Shown here piece after piece: positions 22,455 to 56,220 of a stretch of DNA of 64,000 bases (positions are counted from its first letter, which is position 1; each line of letters begins with the position of its first letter). A model generated the notes under the pieces. The model made no database searches. It had not been told where the DNA came from and saw only the letters and a program-made list of their open reading frames with translations. Source of the stretch: an uncultured Poribacteria bacterium (GTDB lineage Bacteria; Poribacteria; WGA-4E; WGA-3G); NCBI GenBank assembly GCA_951813565.1, contig OX638351.1, positions 863,389 to 927,388 on the forward strand, read 5' to 3'. Made by a program: the position numbers and the translations under genes.

Positions 22455-23160
22455 AACGTGAGTTTGATAATAATATTATAACGTGAGTTTGATAATTAGA
22501 CCTAAATGTAGATGTCAGTTGGGTAGAGCGAAGCGAAACCTATAGGCGTCAATTTAGTGCCTGATTTTCTTGTGGGAGGGCTTTCTAAGCCCGATATTGT
22601 GAGGCTCAAACCGTTATATCGGGGTTGAAAACCCGACAAATGCCAAAAAGCGCATTTGGCGTTGATTTGGCAGCATGCCATACGCGCATGCTGCGTTGAT
22701 TCACTCCCACAATAGGATATATCCTAAAATTGACACTTATGGGTAGAGCTTGCGAAACCCGACCTGTTGGGACTGAAATACTATTATCAAAACCTGCTTG
22801 ATGTGTTCCTTCGATTTCCGTGTGAAACCCGCCCAGTTTGCCTTGAAACCTTGATATTGTCGGGTTTCGCAAGCTCTACCCGACGGGCGAACTTTAGATT
22901 TTATGAGAGACCAAAAACTACGGACAATTAAAACGTTATAATGTCTAATGTCTATTATTCCTAATCGGTTTGTTTTACTAACGTGAGTTCGGTATAATAC
23001 CAAACGGGACTTACGCAACTTGATCAAAAAACAGACAAATTTCGTCTGAAAAATCGTTATTTCAGCACTTTTAACCCTAAATCCCTTATCAAGCGGACTT
23101 TAAGAAGAACTGCGCAAGTCCTGTTTGGTTACGGCACGCGGTGCGTACCTACTACCTTTA
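22455..23160. repeat. Patchwork of nested REP/MITE-like palindromic repeats
   Basis: TAACGTGAGTTTGATAA twice, a CCTATAGGCGTCAA...TTGACACTTATGGG shell, TGTGGGAG REPs and AATCAAC hairpins. All recur elsewhere in the window. Confidence 0.8.
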
Positions 23161-27769: not shown

Positions 27770-27904
27770 TTTAAAAATCAGGAATTTTAGGGCGTAGTTT
27801 GCAAGCCGATATTACAATTTGGGATGCGATGTCCTACGTTGCAGGAAATTATTTTTAGTTTAGACACAACAAACCCGTTCTTGATGATTAAGGAGAAGCG
27901 ATTG

Positions 27905-28831
27905 ATGAAAAGACACAGAAATATAGCCATTTATGCTATCTTTGCAATTGTCTGTGTGTGGATGGTAGGATGCGGCGGCTGTAATCCGGAACCGGTGCCG
28001 TCAAACATGACCCCTATTGAAGGGGAGGAAACTGGTGGAACGTCTGTCCTTATTACTGGCGAAAATTTCGATATGAAAAACGGTATGACTGTGATGTTTG
28101 GTGAGAAAGAAGGGCAAAATGTAACCGTCCCAAGTAAAACAGAACTTACTGTGGTAGCACCTGCTGGCACAGCGGGACAATCAGTGAGTGTCGTTATCAC
28201 CAACAAAGGAAAACCAGATGTGCCCGTTACGCTCAGCCAGCAATTTACCTATACAGATGCAACACCGCCGACAGTAACAGGTACCGACCCTACTGATGGT
28301 ACTGTTTTCTCTGAATACGAAGATTCTTTGAATGTCAGAGATAACCTCACGGTTACCTTCAGTGAACCGGTTGATGCTAATAGCGTTTCAATTCAAGTTG
28401 CTGTTGCTAAAACAGAAGATGCCATGAGTGAACCCGCAGAAGTTACACTTACAGGCACAGTAAGTGGTAGTGACGATTCTGTGACGTTTACTTCAGATAT
28501 GCCGATGCGCTGCGGACGCATGTATACCGTCACTGTCTCAGGCGCTACTGATATGGCTGGAAATACCCTTGCTACCGCACACAGTTTCAGTTTTAGTGTT
28601 ACCAGTCCGGAACCTGTCTACAAGTATTACGTTAAAGAAGAGGATATTCAGGAAGAAAATGGTGAGGCAGCACTTAAACGCATCGCCTCTCGTCCTGAGA
28701 TTTTTGATAATCCTGAGAAGTGGACACGATTAGTAGCCGCAAATCAAGATGATTATATCTTTGATCGGACGAAACTAAGTGTGGGACAAGAGTTATTAAT
28801 TCCTCGCGGACCCGCTTGGGGTGATAAGTAG
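27905..28831 (+). CDS. Lipoprotein with IPT/TIG, Ig-like and C-terminal LysM-like domains
   Basis: Signal ending MVGC, ITGENF...VMFG (IPT), PPTVTGTDP...VTFSEPV (Ig-like), and YYVK...IA...W..L..AN...GQELLIP (LysM-like). Confidence 0.75.
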   Translation: MKRHRNIAIYAIFAIVCVWMVGCGGCNPEPVPSNMTPIEGEETGGTSVLITGENFDMKNGMTVMFGEKEGQNVTVPSKTELTVVAPAGTAGQSVSVVITNKGKPDVPVTLSQQFTYTDATPPTVTGTDPTDGTVFSEYEDSLNVRDNLTVTFSEPVDANSVSIQVAVAKTEDAMSEPAEVTLTGTVSGSDDSVTFTSDMPMRCGRMYTVTVSGATDMAGNTLATAHSFSFSVTSPEPVYKYYVKEEDIQEENGEAALKRIASRPEIFDNPEKWTRLVAANQDDYIFDRTKLSVGQELLIPRGPAWGDK

Positions 28832-28890: not shown

Positions 28891-29244
28891 ATTTGCAATG
28901 GTCTGAACCAGGATTTACAAGATTGTTGAGTTTTCTTGATTGAAGTTGTCTCTTGTGGGAGGGTTTGCATTCAATTCACCAAATCAATGCAGAATACCAC
29001 ACGCGTATTCTGCATTGCACATTTGTTGTTTGGTTTGGATTTCTTCTGTGAGTAGGAATCAACGCTGAATACACTTTTGTTTGGTATTCAGCGGGTTCCT
29101 AACCTTGGTCCTTGGTGACGTATCAGGTTTGCAAGTCCAACCACAAGAATATGTATCACGGCGAGTGTTTCTATAAAAAGAAAACGGATTAGTAATAACT
29201 AAAATGGTAATACTAATCCGCTTATGTAAGTGATGTGAAATGTC

Positions 29245-40318: not shown

Positions 40319-40488
40319 GATTATTGTGGTTGGACTACTGCTCCGCTTTATTGTAGGGCGGGGTCTCTGTGCCCCGCCTAATGTATAAACACGCATGAGG
40401 TGTTGATTTAGTCATTCAGTGTTTGTAGTCGCGCAATTTATTGCGCCTCTTTGAATTCGTTACGGCACGCGGAGCGTGCCTACTACTT

Positions 40489-50848: not shown

Positions 50849-50944
50849 CAGACATTTTCAATATCTTCATTGAGATGATAACTGCCAATTTGACACACTA
50901 ACAGTGTGGAACTGTGTCTTGCTATTTCTTCGTAAGAGAATAGT

Positions 50945-52150
50945 GGGCGGGCACCAAATCAAGAAATCAACGGTATGAACGACATTTAGTCATTCACCGG
51001 GTATGAATGCCTTTGGCAGAATACGCTGAATCAACGTCAAGCGCGCGTTTGGCACTTATCGGGTATCTGCATGATTTGACGAGTGTTAATTTAAGGCATG
51101 CAATCCCCGTTCACATCGTAGGGCCAAATCAACGCCAAATGCGCTTTTTGGCATTTGGCGGGGTCTTCTGTGCCCCGCCATGTGTCAGGAACATGTCAAG
51201 CAACGGGCGGGCACCAAATCAAGAAATCAACGGTATGAACCATGGCGAATGCCATACGGGGAATGCCAAAGGGCATTCATACCGTTGATTTGGCGCATTC
51301 GTCTTTAGTCATTCACCGGGTATGAATGCCTTTTGGCATTCCCCGGAGACCCGCCCCTACAATAAGGGTGAGGTTTGTAGGTTGTATTTAATAGCGTCCA
51401 ACCTGAAATAAATCCTTAAATTGATACCTATGGGTAGAACGTAGCGAAACCCAACGAAAAATCCTTAAATAACGTGAGTTTGATAATTAACTGGACAGGC
51501 AAAAATTGAACAGAGAACGGGCATATTTGCTGAAAAAATCGTTATTTTGGTGTTTTTAACCCCCTAAATCCCCTTATCAGAGGGACTTTAAGAGGAAATG
51601 TGGAAGTTCTAACTATTTATCAAACTCACGTTTAAATAGATGTCTATGTTGCGGTTAGAAAACCACAACTATTGGGATGTTCGCATATTTCAGAATTTAC
51701 TATAATAACCTAAGTTGCTACGGACAAGATTTCAAGCTTGTAGACATTGCTTTTTACTGAAAAACAAGGATTTCCAGCTAATTCTTATGCTTTCTTTTTT
51801 AAATCGGGGTTAGAAACCCCTCCTACAAGAGCATTCGCGATATAGGTAGCAACTTGGGTTATAATAACCTAAGTTGCTACCTATGTAGCACAAACTTTAT
51901 GAAGATTAACTTATTCTTTTGGTAATTTCTGTCCGTACGAGGCAGATGTGCCCGCTGCTGGCGAGGTTTCCTAACCTCGCTAAATTACCGATTTATTTTC
52001 TTAAACTTCATTTATAATGAACTTTAGAATTAACAGGACATTTTGAGTTGTGAATCAACGCCAAATGCGCGTTTGGCATTTGGCGGGAGGGAACTCCGAT
52101 TCCCGACTATCAGTGAATTTCATCGCGATTCGGAGATCGCTCCTACAGAA
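50945..52150. repeat. Cluster of nested REP/MITE-like repeats
   Basis: AATCAAC hairpins, a TAACGTGAGTTTGATAA shell (51470-51633), an ATAACCTAAGTTGCTAC shell and GTAG-type REPs. Confidence 0.8.
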
Positions 52151-52278
52151 AGTGTGCCTCTTTAATTTGAAGGTTCACCATAGTTTGTGCACTATTAGAC
52201 GCAAACTAAAAGTTTGCGCTACGATATTTCACGTTAGGTTATATATTTCACGTTAGGTTATAATTGAAGAGATAGATG

Positions 52279-52295
52279 TTGGCACAGATATTGCA
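52279..52295 (+). promoter_or_regulatory. sigma54 -24/-12 promoter upstream of dnaK
   Basis: TTGGCAC-AGATA-TTGCA with exact GG-N10-GC spacing, 55 nt before the ATG. Confidence 0.7.
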
Positions 52296-52350
52296 CTTAT
52301 ATTTTTAGCAAATTATACAAACAAAACAATTTATACTATTGGAGATTAAA

Positions 52351-54278: not shown

Positions 54279-54940
54279 CCCATAGGTGTCAACTTAAGAA
54301 CATAATTACCAGATTGTCTCTTGTAGGAGGGCTTTCTAAGCCCGATTTTGTGAGACTCAAACTGTTAAATCCAAATCAACGCAGCATGCGCCAAATCAAG
54401 AAATCAACGGTATGAATCATGGCGAATCATGTAGAATACCAAAAGCGTATTCTACCAAGCGCATTCGTCTTTAGTCATTCACCGGGTATGAATGCCTGTT
54501 GGCATTCCCCGTATGGCATGCTGCCAAATCAACGCTGAATGCGCGTGTAGGCATTCATCCAAATCAACGCAGCATGCGCCAAATCAAGAAATCAACGGTA
54601 TGAATCATGGCGAATCATGTAGAATACCAAAAGCGTATTCTACCAAGCGCATTCGTCTTTAGTCATTCACCGGGTCCGAATGCCTGTTGGCATTCCCCGT
54701 ATGGCATGCTGCCAAATCAACGCTGAATGCGCGTGTAGACATTCATCCAAATCAACGCAGCATGCGCGTATGGCATGCTGCCAAATCAACGCTGAATGCG
54801 CGTGTAGGCATTCATCCAAATCAACGCTGAATGCGCGTGTAGGCATTCATCCAAATCAACGCTGAATGCGCGTGTAGGCATTCATCGGGGTTGAAAACCC
54901 CTCCCACAAGAAGAAATTTCCTTAAGTTGACACTTATGGG
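54279..54940. mobile_element. Composite palindromic element inserted in the dnaK terminator
   Basis: 20-bp imperfect TIR CCCATAGGTGTCAACTTAAG / CTTAAGTTGACACTTATGGG. GAGAAGTAGGCAGCCC repeated at 54265-80 and 54942-57. Confidence 0.75.
54371..54885 (+). repeat. Tandem array of CCAAATCAAC-hairpin modules
   Basis: 188-bp unit twice (54371, 54559), a 34-bp unit (54747), and a 35-bp unit three times (54781, 54816, 54851). Confidence 0.9.
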
Positions 54941-54942
54941 GG

Positions 54943-54972
54943 AGAAGTAGGCAGCCCACAGCCGCCTACTTC
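54943..54972 (+). terminator. Original dnaK terminator hairpin (displaced copy)
   Basis: AGAAGTAGGC...GCCTACTTCT stem. Its 5' arm is also present at the dnaK stop. Confidence 0.6.
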
Positions 54973-55316: not shown

Positions 55317-55375
55317 ATTAGAATCTGTAGTACCAACGTTTCAACTTGAAAAGATTGACACCGTAGGTCTCTTTT

Positions 55376-55421
55376 GTCATAGGTACCCACTACCTAAAGG
55401 TAGGGGGTTTGACGGGGAGTG
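55376..55421 (-). mobile_element. 46-bp minimal relic of the TTAG tnpB element (left tip, one hairpin, right tip)
   Basis: Minus strand reads TTAG|CACTCCCCGTCAAACCCCCTACCTTTAGGTAGTGGGTACCTATGAC|. Confidence 0.85.
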
Positions 55422-56220
55422 CTAAAATAGAGCCAGTGACCCGAGTGAGTATCTCACGACGGGATTAGCGAAGAAGGCACCATTAGCCACCGCTATCGGC
55501 ACCGAGAAAGCAAGGTCAGAAATGATTGTGGCCGATGTGCTTGTTGAACTCCTGGAACACCTGGATCGTCGCATCAGTCTGTTTTCTGGCATTGACTTTA
55601 ATGTTGATGTTGAAAACGGTCTGACTGGTGTATGCGATTTTTTGGTGAGTCTGTCACCGAACCAATTTTATTTAGAGGCACCTGTCATTATCCTTGTTGA
55701 GGCAAAAAATACTGATGTGAAATTGGGGCTTGGACAATGTGTTGCAGAGATGCTCGCCGCCCAACGTTTTAACGCAGAAAGAGGAATGATATCCCTTGCG
55801 TTTATGGGGCTTCCACGACAGGAATAGATTGGCTGTTCCTTAAATTACAGGAAAATAACCTACACATTGATATGTCAGCCTATACGATTGAGCGGTGTGA
55901 CAGGATCCTTGGCATCCTCTCAAGTATGGTGTCCCAGGAGGTGTGATAGTGTATTTGACTACGGCTCCAAAATTACGGTTACTTGTTTTTCTGTGGACGA
56001 GTCAACGGAAGCAATGGCATAGTAAAATCTTCAGGAGTTAACTATAAAAAACTATCTTGTCCATTCATTTTGTTACCTGCTACTATTTGCCATTGTCTTC
56101 ACTGGATGCAGCGAGCGCGATAGAAACTTTATAGTTAAATCCCAAATATGTGAATCACCCTTTGTAGGTGTGGTTTGAAACCGCACCGGACATAATCTGG
56201 AATTACCTAATTTATTTGAG

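What the first reader, a model, noticed from the sequence alone, without database searches (positions are those of the whole stretch)
51119..51180. 35-bp micro-elements (CCAAATCAAC + hairpin) that insert into REPs, with filled and empty sites in the same window
Seen: 51119 reads GTAGGG|CCAAATCAACGCCAAATGCGCTTTTTGGCATTTGG|CGGGG, versus uninterrupted GTAGGGCGGGG at 40353. The 515-bp array at 54371-54885 occupies the site that is empty at about 22620 (GTTATAT^CGGGGTTG). Related units occur near 22640-22705 (minus strand), 28980, 29050 and 52030. The AATCAAC leader is constant, hairpin stems vary while staying paired, the unit is usually followed by CGGG, and there is no TSD. Inference: a family of ultra-small HUH/Y1-mobilised elements, parasitic on REPs and amplified into arrays.
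Basis: partly seen in the sequence, partly recalled or inferred. Interest (0 to 1): 0.62.

Follow-up and report, generated by a model that had tools for sequence, protein, structure and literature searches.

The report
Tiny mobile hairpin DNA in Poribacteria
The 35-base repeats are real: they belong to a family of 33-36-base hairpin DNA units, found in this sample only in sponge-symbiont Poribacteria, that have been spliced precisely in front of a CG (usually CGGG) into other repeats, into each other and once into a transposon gene, making them among the smallest mobile DNA elements with clear filled and empty sites, although the enzyme that moves them was not found.

Summary
Observation confirmed. 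The unit is CCAAATCAACG, then a 7-10-bp stem with a 7-8-nt loop, then G or T (33-35 nt).

- **Abundance:** a model of the unit finds about 16 copies in five intergenic regions of the window. It finds 174 in 86 Poribacteria loci, but only three weak or odd hits in 42 viral or other-phylum loci.
- **Hairpin:** it covaries, with 5 of 10 pairs changed on both sides and 91% of cells paired.
- **Insertion sites:** I found 61 filled/empty pairs in at least 9 unrelated host repeats, and one insertion inside a tnpB gene. The junctions are exact, with 0 or 1 nt duplicated. The 3' flank is CGGG in 70 of 117 contexts, and the 5' flank is free.
- **Relatives:** a sister type (GTAT-GAATGCC hairpin) and a 119-nt relative insert 5' of CG in the loops of other units, giving up to three levels of nesting.
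- **Timing:** three sister species have no unit in the orthologous dnaK region, where the spacer is 247-329 nt against 1503 nt here. All sampled strains of this species share the single units, and only the array differs.

The HUH/Y1 reading is plausible but unproven. Closest known kinds are REP/RAYT, single-hairpin IS200/IS605 derivatives and the Nostoc small dispersed repeats.

The parts
51124..51158 (+). A-type unit: CCAAATCAACG + stem CCAAATGC/GCATTTGG + loop GCTTTTTG. It is inserted in the 5' arm of a GTAG-type REP.
   Evidence: 59.1 bits, E 4e-14; DNA fold -12 kcal/mol, z -3.4. Present in all 7 strain-level assemblies.
51118..51179 (+). Host REP, GTAGGG^CGGGGTCTTCTGTGCCCCGCC, split by the unit (filled site).
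40353..40378 (+). The same REP type uninterrupted, GTAGGGCGGGGTCTCTGTGCCCCGCC (paralogous empty site).
54371..54885 (+). Head-to-tail array of 8 units:
- u1: 54371-54390 + 54510-54523
- u2: 54524-54558
- u3: 54559-54578 + 54698-54711
- u4: 54712-54746
- u5: 54747-54780
- u6: 54781-54815
- u7: 54816-54850
- u8: 54851-54885

It is followed by CGGGG. Two stem types are present, CAGCATGC and CTGAATGC.
   Evidence: (periods 35 and 188).
54391..54509 (+). 119-nt D element (CCAAATCAAGAAATCAACGGTATGAA...GGCATTCCC) inserted 5' of CGTATG in the loop of unit u1. A second copy at 54579-54697 lies in u3.
22636..22704 (-). Two tandem units on the minus strand (22636-22670 A-type; 22671-22704 with a GTG head). 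They lie 5' of CGGGTTTTCAACCCCG, the other arm of the same MITE hairpin.
   Evidence: 58 and 33 bits; identical in strain contig L117.
22614..22634 (+). Empty counterpart of the array site: TTATAT^CGGGGTTGAAAACCC, with the junction between 22619 and 22620.
   Evidence: A further empty copy is L082:7765-7797 and a single-unit copy is L102:5702 (u110).
52050..52083 (+). Unit with a GTG head (GTGAATCAACG...), followed by CGGGAGGGAACTCCGATTCCCGA. In other genomes the same repeat carries 1 to 4 units at this spot.
   Evidence: u17, u49, u70, u96; 59.6 bits.
28979..29015 (+). Diverged unit: CCAAATCAATG + GCAGAATAC/GTATTCTGC hairpin.
   Evidence: (26.6 bits).
29054..29091 (+). Unit with an AGG head and stem CGCTGAATAC/GTATTCAGCG, followed by GGG.
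   Evidence: (39.3 bits).
51026..51059 (+). Decayed unit: CTGAATCAACGTCAAGCGCGCGTTTGGCACTTAT, followed by CGGG.
   Evidence: (32.4 bits).
51259..51293 (-). F-type unit, CCAAATCAACG-GTAT-GAATGCC-CTTT-GGCATTC-CC, nested inside D element copy 2.
   Evidence: f35: the empty counterpart is L093:2012-2051, 0 mismatches over the 40 aligned nt. (-8.1 kcal/mol, z -4.6).
51214..51343 (+). D element copy 2, inserted 5' of CGGAGACCC in the loop of an inverted GTAG REP (GGGCGGGCA^CGGAGACCCGCCCCTAC). A truncated copy 1 lies at 50954-51011.
54283..54960 (+). MITE-like host repeat. Terminal inverted repeats are CCCCATAGGTGTCAACTTAAG / CTTAAGTTGACACTTATGGGG, and an inner hairpin is CTTGTAGGAGGG...CCCCTCCCACAAG. 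It carries the array. Its paralogue is at about 22520-22760.
55376..55425 (-). Context only: a 46-nt single-hairpin derivative of the window's IS200/IS605 element. It has a TTAG target, the left tip, one hairpin, and a right tip ending TGAC.
   Evidence: One search compared by eye with the element ends. Very high word depth in the bin that holds it, 55343-55500.

Best explanation
**What it is.** These are members of a superfamily of non-coding, non-autonomous mobile DNA units of 33-36 nt, found here only in Poribacteria. Each unit has a conserved 11-nt head (CCAAATCAACG), one hairpin whose sequence varies between subfamilies but stays paired, and a single tail base.

**How it inserts.** A unit enters DNA in a fixed orientation immediately 5' of a CG, strongly preferring CGGG. 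It duplicates no target base, or at most one.

**Why it nests and forms arrays.** GGG/CCC-stemmed REPs and MITE hairpins are rich in CGGG. A freshly inserted unit still abuts the same CGGG, and unit loops contain CG. New copies therefore land in REPs, behind older units (giving head-to-tail arrays) and inside unit loops (giving nesting). Arrays are then reshaped by duplication and by recombination between units.

**Inferred, not shown.** The unit probably moves as folded single-stranded DNA, cut and rejoined in trans by a HUH-type nuclease such as RAYT, IS200/IS605 TnpA or a rolling-circle relative. That enzyme would read the head plus the hairpin. The CG at the foot of the hairpin may help choose the target, because it pairs with the target CG and lengthens the stem by 2 bp.

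**Confidence split.** About 0.85 that these are genuinely mobile micro-elements, and about 0.4 that a HUH enzyme moves them.
For: **Precise filled/empty pairs**
- 61 pairs for the A-type, 20 of them with no mismatch in the flanks, in at least 9 unrelated hosts.
- 21 pairs for the F-type, several with 44/44 identical flanks inside A-type loops.
- A 52-nt tandem repeat in L041 has filled and empty copies side by side.

**Insertion into coding DNA**
- L058 tnpB reads ...GATCCCG|34-nt unit|TTGTGGAGC. The homologous element in L001 is uninterrupted.

**Target and structure**
- The 3' flank is CGGG in 70 of 117 non-redundant contexts. The first base is C in 102 of 117 and the second is G in 89 of 117. 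The 5' flank shows no preference.
- The hairpin covaries and folds as ssDNA at -6.4 to -12 kcal/mol.
- Head bases C10 and G11 pair with the target CG in 61 and 79 of 83 sequences.
- Nine model hits of 71-73 nt and one of 109 nt are units nested in unit loops.

**Lineage-specific gain**
- There are 8 or more units around dnaK in this species. There are none in the orthologous 10 kb of three sister species (dnaK 89-92% identical at DNA level), although two of those genomes carry the family elsewhere.

**Taxon restriction**
- 86 of 106 pattern hits are in Poribacteria MAGs.
- Of 42 other loci only L047, an unclassified MAG, has real units.

**Orientation**
- Unit orientation is unrelated to neighbouring genes (25/28/16/13). 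This argues for a DNA-level element rather than a transcript signal.

**Precedent in the same window**
- A 46-nt single-hairpin IS200/IS605 derivative is present.

**Precedent in the literature**
- E. coli TnpA-REP needs a 5' tag plus a hairpin. It cuts at a mere dinucleotide and can build tandem copies in vitro (PMC3333891).
Against: - No Y1, RAYT or other candidate enzyme gene was found in the window plus 106 loci, about 0.9 Mb.
- No gene is bracketed by inverted units in the way a REPtron is. The genes between inverted units are oxidoreductase, TrkA, ABC, HAD and response-regulator genes.
- The head is not GT(A/G)G.
- Read on the strand where the conserved flank is 5' (CCCG^), the element has no left tip for an IS608-style guide.
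- No strand bias appears against GC skew or chromosome position. Riding inside mobile host repeats would blur any such bias.
- The single units at 51124, 52050 and 22636-22704 are fixed in all sampled strains, so no transposition on the strain timescale was seen.
- Most filled/empty pairs are paralogous copies of repeats, so precise loss cannot be told from gain.
- The loci were collected with a pattern taken from the unit itself, and model R1 includes the CGG of the target. Both inflate uniformity.
Confidence: 0.5

Rival explanations
1. The units are moved by a different, possibly undescribed, enzyme class. Candidates are a tyrosine or serine recombinase acting on folded single strands (integron-like), an IS110-type or other site-specific system, or a reverse-transcriptase route through RNA.
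For: - No HUH gene was found near any unit.
- Neither the REP head rule nor the IS608 end architecture is met.
- The head AATCAAC resembles the attC inverse core RYYYAAC at 6 of 7 positions (my own comparison, from textbook knowledge).
- The structure is conserved while the sequence varies, as in attC sites.
Against: - There is no partner GTTRRRY on the same strand, and no cassette content.
- The junctions are ^CC and ^CG, not G^TT.
- 34 nt is far too small to encode a bridge or guide RNA.
- Unit orientation is unrelated to transcription, which gives no hint of an RNA stage.
Confidence: 0.2
2. No dedicated enzyme is involved. Units are copied into new sites by replication template switching or microhomology-mediated gene conversion at stalled hairpins. 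The shared CG(GG) on the right and the C on the left would serve as the microhomology, and arrays would grow by slippage.
For: - Every donor unit is already followed by CG(GG), and the target starts with the same bases.
- Units with mismatched arms exist, along with a 188-bp duplication and three identical consecutive units. These show that recombination and slippage act on arrays.
- All targets lie in or next to hairpins.
Against: - Microhomology on the left is only 1-2 nt, yet the boundaries are exact in dozens of events across at least 10 contexts and many species.
- The 11-nt head is strongly conserved although it is unpaired. In alignment A1 positions 4-11 are invariant, partly by ascertainment.
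- Two different hairpin classes keep the same head and the same junction rule, which points to recognition by a protein.
Confidence: 0.12
3. The units are not mobile themselves. They are modules of larger composite repeats (REP/MITE variants) that spread with their hosts, and the 'empty' copies arose by precise deletion between short repeats.
For: - Most pairs are paralogous repeat copies.
- One repeat family (52012-52188) always carries at least one unit with a GTG head.
- The single units are fixed among strains.
Against: - The same 34-nt unit with the same boundaries occurs in at least 9 unrelated hosts, inside other units, and inside a tnpB gene.
- There are no direct repeats at the boundaries that could drive precise deletion.
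- Sister species lack all units at the orthologous dnaK locus.
Confidence: 0.08
4. The units are selected cis-acting host signals, such as binding sites for a nucleoid or regulatory protein, DNA-uptake sequences, or RNA stabilisers/terminators, rather than selfish DNA.
For: - The head is conserved and the hairpin is conserved across many species.
- The location is intergenic.
- AATCAA matches the core of the IHF consensus WATCAA (my own knowledge).
Against: - Orientation is random relative to flanking genes.
- There is no T-run after the hairpin.
- There is no Rfam match.
- Units pile up inside other repeats and inside each other instead of at fixed positions relative to genes.
- They are absent from the orthologous spacers of sister species.
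Confidence: 0.05

Closest known systems
REP / BIME / REPIN elements with RAYT (TnpA-REP) Y1 transposases (Nunvar 2010, PMC2817692; Ton-Hoang 2012, PMC3333891; Bertels & Rainey 2011, PMC3116915)
   Same: - A short conserved 5' tag followed by one 20-40-nt hairpin whose stem keeps pairing through compensatory changes.
- High-copy, intergenic and clustered.
- The cognate enzyme of REPs acts on single strands, needs tag plus hairpin, cuts at a dinucleotide and can build tandem copies.
   Different: - The tag is CCAAATCAACG (11 nt), not GT(A/G)G.
- Arrays are head-to-tail, not alternating inverted REPs.
- Single units show exact insertion junctions 5' of CG(GG), which has not been documented for single REPs.
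- No RAYT flanked by these units was found.
- The units insert into GTAG REPs rather than being them.
IS200/IS605 family and its gene-less derivatives (PATEs), including the 46-nt single-hairpin derivative at 55376-55425 of this window
   Same: - Insertion in one orientation next to a fixed short sequence without target duplication. Read on the bottom strand this is 3' of CCCG, as IS608 inserts 3' of TTAC.
- Hairpin-based ends.
- Non-autonomous copies served in trans.
- A single-hairpin mini-version exists in the same genome.
   Different: - There is only one hairpin, and essentially no left tip (0-1 nt) between target and hairpin, so the IS608 guide/cleavage-site geometry does not fit.
- The ends are unrelated to the TTAG...TGAC element of this window.
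- No full-length parent was found.
- No strand bias was detected.
Small dispersed repeats SDR4-6 of Nostoc punctiforme and relatives (Elhai et al. 2008, Genome Res 18:1484). The paper is not held in the library, so its features are cited from memory and from citing papers.
   Same: - Very small (<40 nt) repeats that behave as mobile DNA.
- Found nested in each other and in larger repeats.
- Hairpin-containing.
- The mechanism and the enzyme are unknown.
   Different: - A different phylum (Cyanobacteria).
- 21-27 nt against 33-36 nt.
- No sequence relationship could be tested here.
- The clear CG(GG) target rule and the long head-to-tail arrays are features of the present family.
Rolling-circle HUH elements (IS91/ISCR, Helitrons)
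   Same: - No target duplication.
- Insertion at a fixed short sequence that abuts one end.
- A conserved 5' terminus and a hairpin close to the 3' terminus.
- A tendency to form tandem copies.
   Different: - Those are kilobase elements, or non-autonomous copies of more than 100 nt.
- No Rep/Hel or IS91-type gene was looked for genome-wide.
- The resemblance is recalled from general knowledge, not tested.

Membership tests
REP/RAYT (REPtron) | Conserved GT(A/G)G head directly 5' of the palindrome (PMC2817692). | tested here: not met
   The head is CCAAATCAACG, or GTGAATCAACG in some copies. Positions 4-11 are invariant in 84 sequences.
REP/RAYT (REPtron) | Short imperfect palindrome kept paired by compensatory changes; high-copy and intergenic. 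| tested here: met
   91% of cells paired, 5 of 10 pairs changed on both sides; about 16 copies in the window; 174 in 684 kb.
REP/RAYT (REPtron) | [quoted passage not shown] | tested here: inconclusive
   None was found in the window plus 106 loci.
REP/RAYT (REPtron) | Clusters (BIMEs) of REPs in alternating orientation. | tested here: not met
   Arrays are direct head-to-tail.
IS200/IS605-derived mini-elements (PATE-like) | Orientation-specific insertion 3' of a fixed tetra- or pentanucleotide, with no target duplication. | tested here: met
   On the bottom strand every copy follows CG, and 70 of 117 follow CCCG. Duplication is 0-1 nt.
IS200/IS605-derived mini-elements (PATE-like) | Left and right ends each with a sub-terminal hairpin and a guide tetranucleotide 5' of its foot. 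A collapsed form keeps both tips. | tested here: not met
   One hairpin. The tips are 11 nt and 1 nt, and on the target-first strand the left tip is 0-1 nt. Compare the 19-nt and 15-nt tips of the 46-nt derivative.
IS200/IS605-derived mini-elements (PATE-like) | A full-length parent with the same ends encoding TnpA and/or TnpB. | tested here: inconclusive
   The tnpB elements in the sample have TTAG...TGAC ends. No parent with these ends was seen, and no genome-wide search was possible.
MITE | Terminal inverted repeats and a target-site duplication. | tested here: not met
   The ends CCAAATC... and ...GCATTTGG/T are not inverted repeats of each other, and there is no TSD.
Small dispersed repeats (Elhai 2008) | 21-27-nt repeats of Nostocaceae, nested in each other and in larger repeats. 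| tested here: inconclusive
   Nesting is met. Size and taxon differ. Sequence comparison was not possible because the paper is not held.
Integron attC sites | Paired R''/R' core sites (RYYYAAC...GTTRRRY) on one strand, with recombination at G^TT. | tested here: not met
   Only an AATCAAC-like box is present, with no partner on the same strand. The junctions are ^CC and ^CG.
Known RNA families (Rfam 15) | A match at the gathering threshold. | tested here: not met
   0 matches in the window.

The most novel reading that the evidence does not exclude
These units may be a previously undescribed class of minimal single-strand DNA transposon. A 34-nt, single-hairpin element would carry all of its cis information in an 11-nt head and a structure-only stem. 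Its own CG at the hairpin foot would act as a 2-bp guide that selects the CG(GG) target. An enzyme not linked to it in the genome would move it, possibly a Y1 clade with no known substrate or a new enzyme. If so, this is the smallest sequence-specific mobile DNA with defined junctions. It would also be a main force inflating intergenic DNA in Poribacteria: the dnaK spacer is 1.5 kb here against 0.25-0.33 kb in sister species.
Probability: 0.3. Interest if true: 0.8.

Novelty: new variant of a known kind. Interest (0 to 1): 0.6.

Why it matters
REPs and similar tiny repeats are among the commonest features of bacterial genomes, yet how a single unit moves has hardly ever been caught. Published evidence rests on REP doublets (REPINs) and on in vitro cutting of BIMEs.

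This family offers dozens of exact junctions. It also shows:
- a simple target rule (5' of CG, best CGGG);
- self-nesting;
- growth of arrays at a target that each insertion regenerates;
- an insertion into a gene.

That makes the mechanism directly testable with oligonucleotides and candidate enzymes. It also explains much of the repeat-filled intergenic DNA of a major, uncultured sponge-symbiont phylum. I found no paper on DNA repeats of Poribacteria in the library.

For practical work, these units break short-read assemblies: contigs end at them. They could serve as markers for separating lineages.

Tried and rejected
2. **Cyanobacterial origin.** I suspected this at first from the resemblance to Nostoc SDRs. 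The genome-contig scan and earlier notes show Poribacteria.
3. **Elhai 2008 paper.** It is not held by DOI or by PMC id.
4. **RAYT or IS200 TnpA in the window plus 106 loci.** Nothing scored below E = 0.27.
5. **REPtron-like arrangement.** The eight pairs of inverted units 0.3-3.5 kb apart enclose only housekeeping genes or nothing.
6. **Recurrent neighbour genes.** ORF families that recur within 300 nt of units are WD40, ABC-2, MacB/FtsX and GFO/IDH paralogues, not enzymes acting on DNA.
7. **Strand bias.** I found none against local GC skew (41 of 77 loci, p = 0.65), against position on two chromosome-scale contigs, or against flanking gene direction.
8. **Strain polymorphism from public runs.** Only Logan unitigs were available. 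They break at the repeats, and the joints seen are explained by paralogues.
9. **Strain-level contigs.** The single units are fixed and only the array differs. The protein 27824-28831 is not on record.
10. **Viral contigs.** All 22 pattern hits are chance matches without the hairpin.
11. **IS608-style guide rule applied to the head.** It does not predict CGGG, so I rejected it as a simple explanation.
12. **Rfam.** No match.
Full report
**Scope and limits.** Everything beyond the 64-kb window therefore rests on four sources:
- 106 stretches of 8 kb fetched by one pattern scan of species-representative genomes;
- 22 viral stretches;
- 14 loci fetched through exact or near DnaK and PhyH proteins;
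- Logan contigs of four public runs.

**1.
- The window reads GTAGGG|CCAAATCAACGCCAAATGCGCTTTTTGGCATTTGG|CGGGGTCTTCTGTGCCCCGCC at 51118-51179. The same REP is uninterrupted, GTAGGGCGGGGTCTCTGTGCCCCGCC, at 40353-40378.
- The stretch 54371-54885 lies between TTAAAT and CGGGGTTGAAAACCCC of a MITE-like hairpin repeat. The other copy of that repeat reads TTATAT^CGGGGTTGAAAACCC at 22619/22620 and carries two units on the opposite strand at 22636-22704.
- CCAAATCAACG with up to one mismatch occurs 12 times against 1.76 expected.
- Tandem Repeats Finder reports a 35-nt period (5 copies) and a 188-nt period (2.1 copies) in the array.
- A covariance model of the unit (R1) finds about 16 full or interrupted copies in the window. 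All lie in five intergenic regions, and the eight best have E = 3e-14 to 1e-8.
- Rfam has nothing here.

**2. Organism and distribution.**
- The window encodes ThuA, PhyH, Laminin_G_3 and DnaK proteins.
Of these, 86 are from MAGs labelled Candidatus Poribacteria, belonging to some two dozen species. Earlier notes of this scan place the window's genome in the same phylum.
- R1 finds 174 copies (E up to 0.001) in those 86 loci.
- In 42 viral or other-phylum stretches that matched the bare pattern, R1 finds three hits. Two are in one unclassified MAG (L047) and one is weak.
- In this sample the family is therefore confined to Poribacteria. I found no paper on DNA repeats of this phylum.

**3. Anatomy.** The unit is 33-35 nt:
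- an unpaired head CCAAATCAACG (some copies have GTG or another triplet in place of CCA);
- a stem of 7-10 bp;
- a 7-8-nt loop (GCGTTTG, GCGTATG, GCTTTTG and others);
- one last base, G or T.

Stem subfamilies include CCAAATGC, CTGAATGC, CAGCATGC, CCGAATAC, CCAAATAC and ATGAATGC. Each comes with the matching 3' arm.

I selected 84 sequences on the head and the 5' arm only, and removed copies that are visibly interrupted. On these:
- 91.3% of cells pair, against 29-39% when the partner columns are slid.
- 5 of 10 pairs change on both sides.
- 77 cells carry a double change, against 23.6 in shuffles (0 of 500 reach 77).

The copies are related, so this shows that pairing is maintained across subfamilies. 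It does not give a count of independent events. As single-stranded DNA the units fold at -6.4 to -12 kcal/mol.

A second class (F-type) has the same head, then GTAT, a GAATGCC/GGCATTC stem with a 4-5-nt loop, and a CC(C) tail. A 119-nt relative (D) starts CCAAATCAAGAAATCAACGGTATGAA and ends GGCATTCCC.

**4. Insertion junctions.**
- For every unit I removed the unit in silico and searched the joined 22+22-nt flanks in all the DNA held. For the A-type, 61 units have an 'empty' counterpart with at most 2 mismatches. Twenty have none.
- The hosts are unrelated to each other:
  - GTCCCTA^CGGGAC (a triloop)
  - GGCATTCCC^CGGGTATGAATGCC
  - GCGCAATTCATTG^CGCC
  - GCCCCAG^CGGGGC
  - ...GTGT^CGGGTTTCGC (a 3' arm)
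  - GTAGGT^CGGGTAGAGCG and GTAGGG^CGGGG (5' arms of GTAG REPs)
  - TTAAAT^CGGGGTTGAAAACCCC
  - directly behind another unit (...GG^CGGGAGGGAACTCC), which is how arrays gain a copy.
- A 52-nt tandem repeat in L041 has filled and empty copies side by side.
- The F-type gives 21 pairs. Five have 44/44 identical flanks where it sits in the loop of an A-type unit (CCAAATGCG^CGTATGGCATTTG). The window's own F-type copy at 51259-51293 has an empty counterpart in L093.
- R1 hits of 71-73 nt (nine) and 109 nt (one) are units nested in units.
- In the window, D sits in the loops of two array units, 5' of CGTATG. It also sits in the loop of an inverted REP, 5' of CGGAGACCC, and that D copy itself contains an F-type unit. 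This makes three levels of nesting.
- One insertion lies in coding DNA. In L058 the 3' end of a tnpB gene reads GATCCCG|ACAAATGCCAAACGCGCATGTGGCGTTGATTTGG|TTGTGGAGC, while the homologous element in L001 reads GATCCCGTTGTGGAGC.
- Over 117 non-redundant contexts the 3' flank starts with C in 102, then G in 89, and is CGGG in 70. The 5' flank has no preference. R1 includes the CGG, which inflates these figures, but the regex-based lists show the same.
- The junction is ambiguous by one C, so the target duplication is 0 or 1 nt.

**5. Timing.**
- Contigs from other samples that encode the identical DnaK (dnaK DNA 99.9-100% identical) all carry the units at 51124 and 52050. A contig with the identical PhyH carries those at 22636-22704.
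- The strains do differ in other ways: a 168-nt MITE, a 19-bp duplication and a 35-nt deletion.
- Only the array varies. L108 follows the window as far as that contig runs. L114 and L115, from two independent samples and assemblers, span a 4-unit array in which the 5' and 3' arms of different subfamilies are combined.
- Such chimeric units also occur in a chromosome-level assembly (L102). I therefore read them as real recombinants, with the caveat that L114 and L115 are short-read assemblies.
- Three sister species keep the order ThuA-PhyH-Laminin_G_3-DnaK (dnaK 89-92% identical at DNA level). Their spacer before dnaK is 247-329 nt against 1503 nt here, and R1 finds no unit in their 10-kb loci, against 8 or more in this species. 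At least two of those genomes carry the family elsewhere.
- The units near dnaK were therefore gained after these species split and before the sampled strains diverged.

**6. Mechanism: shown and inferred.**

*Shown:*
- exact, orientation-specific insertion 5' of CG(GG) with no or 1-nt duplication;
- a conserved unpaired head and a structure-conserved stem;
- nesting and head-to-tail arrays;
- recombination within arrays;
- no relation to gene direction (25 co-directional on both sides, 28 opposite on both sides, 16 and 13 mixed).

*Inferred:* movement as a folded single strand through a trans-acting HUH-type nuclease. The reasons are:
- Tag-plus-hairpin is what E. coli TnpA-REP needs. That enzyme cuts at a dinucleotide and makes tandem copies in vitro (PMC3333891; PMC2817692).
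- Read on the bottom strand, the units follow the IS200/IS605 rule of inserting 3' of a fixed short sequence (CCCG^) without duplication.
- The window contains tnpB elements of that family, and a 46-nt single-hairpin derivative of one of them.
- After insertion the head's C10 and G11 pair with the target's C and G (61 and 79 of 83 sequences; folds). In the F-type at CGTA sites a third pair, A-T, is added. This suggests the foot of the hairpin helps to pick the CG. It is an idea, not a result.

*Against the HUH reading:*
- The head is not GTAG.
- There is no left tip for an IS608-type guide.
- No Y1 gene lies in about 0.9 Mb.
- No gene is bracketed by inverted units.
- No neighbouring gene family that acts on DNA recurs.
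- No strand bias was seen.

Earlier notes of this scan say that RAYT genes with GTAG REPs exist in other Poribacteria genomes. I could not test whether any of them serves this family.

**7. Comparison and novelty.** The family works like a REP (tag plus hairpin, probably single-stranded). It inserts like an IS200/IS605 element (fixed flank, no duplication). It behaves like the small dispersed repeats of Nostoc (very small, nested, mover unknown). It fails a defining feature of each, as set out in the membership table.

I class it as a new variant of a known kind. Its distinctive points are the clean single-unit junctions, the CG(GG) rule, the shared head on two hairpin classes and on a 119-nt relative, and the restriction to Poribacteria.

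Several earlier agent notes of this scan describe similar tiny nesting hairpins in other Poribacteria genomes. One mentions a GAATCAACG stem-loop and another a 34-36-nt hairpin landing next to CG. They are consistent with this report but are not independent evidence.

Noticed in passing
window 51465-51632: A 168-nt MITE with inverted ends (AACGTGAGTTTGATAAT...ATCAAACTCACGTT), bounded by TTAAAT on both sides. It is present in the window and in L111 but absent from five other assemblies of the same species. This is a genuine strain-level insertion polymorphism.
   Followed up: partly
window 52280-52295: TGGCACAGATATTGCA, about 55 nt upstream of the dnaK start, matches the sigma-54 consensus TGGCAC-N5-TTGCW. 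The core is kept in two of the three sister species (L118, L119), with one change in L120. A sigma-54 promoter for dnaK would be unusual.
   Followed up: no
window 50849-52350 versus L118, L119, L120: The Laminin_G_3-dnaK spacer is 1503 nt here and 247-329 nt in three sister species. Only the two ends are conserved, and the rest is lineage-specific nested repeats.
   Followed up: yes
window 52224-52261: A 19-bp tandem duplication (ATATTTCACGTTAGGTTAT x2) is present only in the window's assembly. Six other assemblies have one copy.
   Followed up: partly
window 55376-55425 (minus strand): A 46-nt single-hairpin collapse of the window's IS200/IS605 element. It has a TTAG target, the left tip, one CTACC-TTTA-GGTAG hairpin and a right tip ending TGAC. 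The bin that contains it has about 90 times the single-copy word depth in four sponge metagenomes, so some sequence there is highly repeated.
   Followed up: partly
L041 1780-2700 (minus strand): A tandem array of a 52-nt repeat containing the hairpin GTCCCTACGGGAC. Eight copies carry the 34-nt unit (period 86) and four do not (period 52).
   Followed up: partly
L058 1916-1949: A unit is inserted in the last codons of a tnpB gene, in the region where the guide RNA of such elements begins. It changes the C-terminus and probably disables the element.
   Followed up: partly
L118 5975-8732, L119 5978-7956, L120 5959-6564: Sister species have one to three or four tandem paralogous genes of about 201 aa with no Pfam hit (one to three of exactly 201 aa; L118 also has a 233-aa gene next in line). 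The first lies 39-43 nt after dnaK. The window's species has the repeat array and MITE there instead.
   Followed up: no
L118 878-2032: A DDE_3 transposase gene sits between ThuA and PhyH in the closest sister species only.
   Followed up: no
L107 about 3540 (window about 51790-51825): A 35-nt deletion in one strain removes CTAATTCTTATGCTTTCTTTTTTAAATCGGGGTTA, that is, the 5' arm of a GGGGTT/AACCCC hairpin repeat.
   Followed up: no
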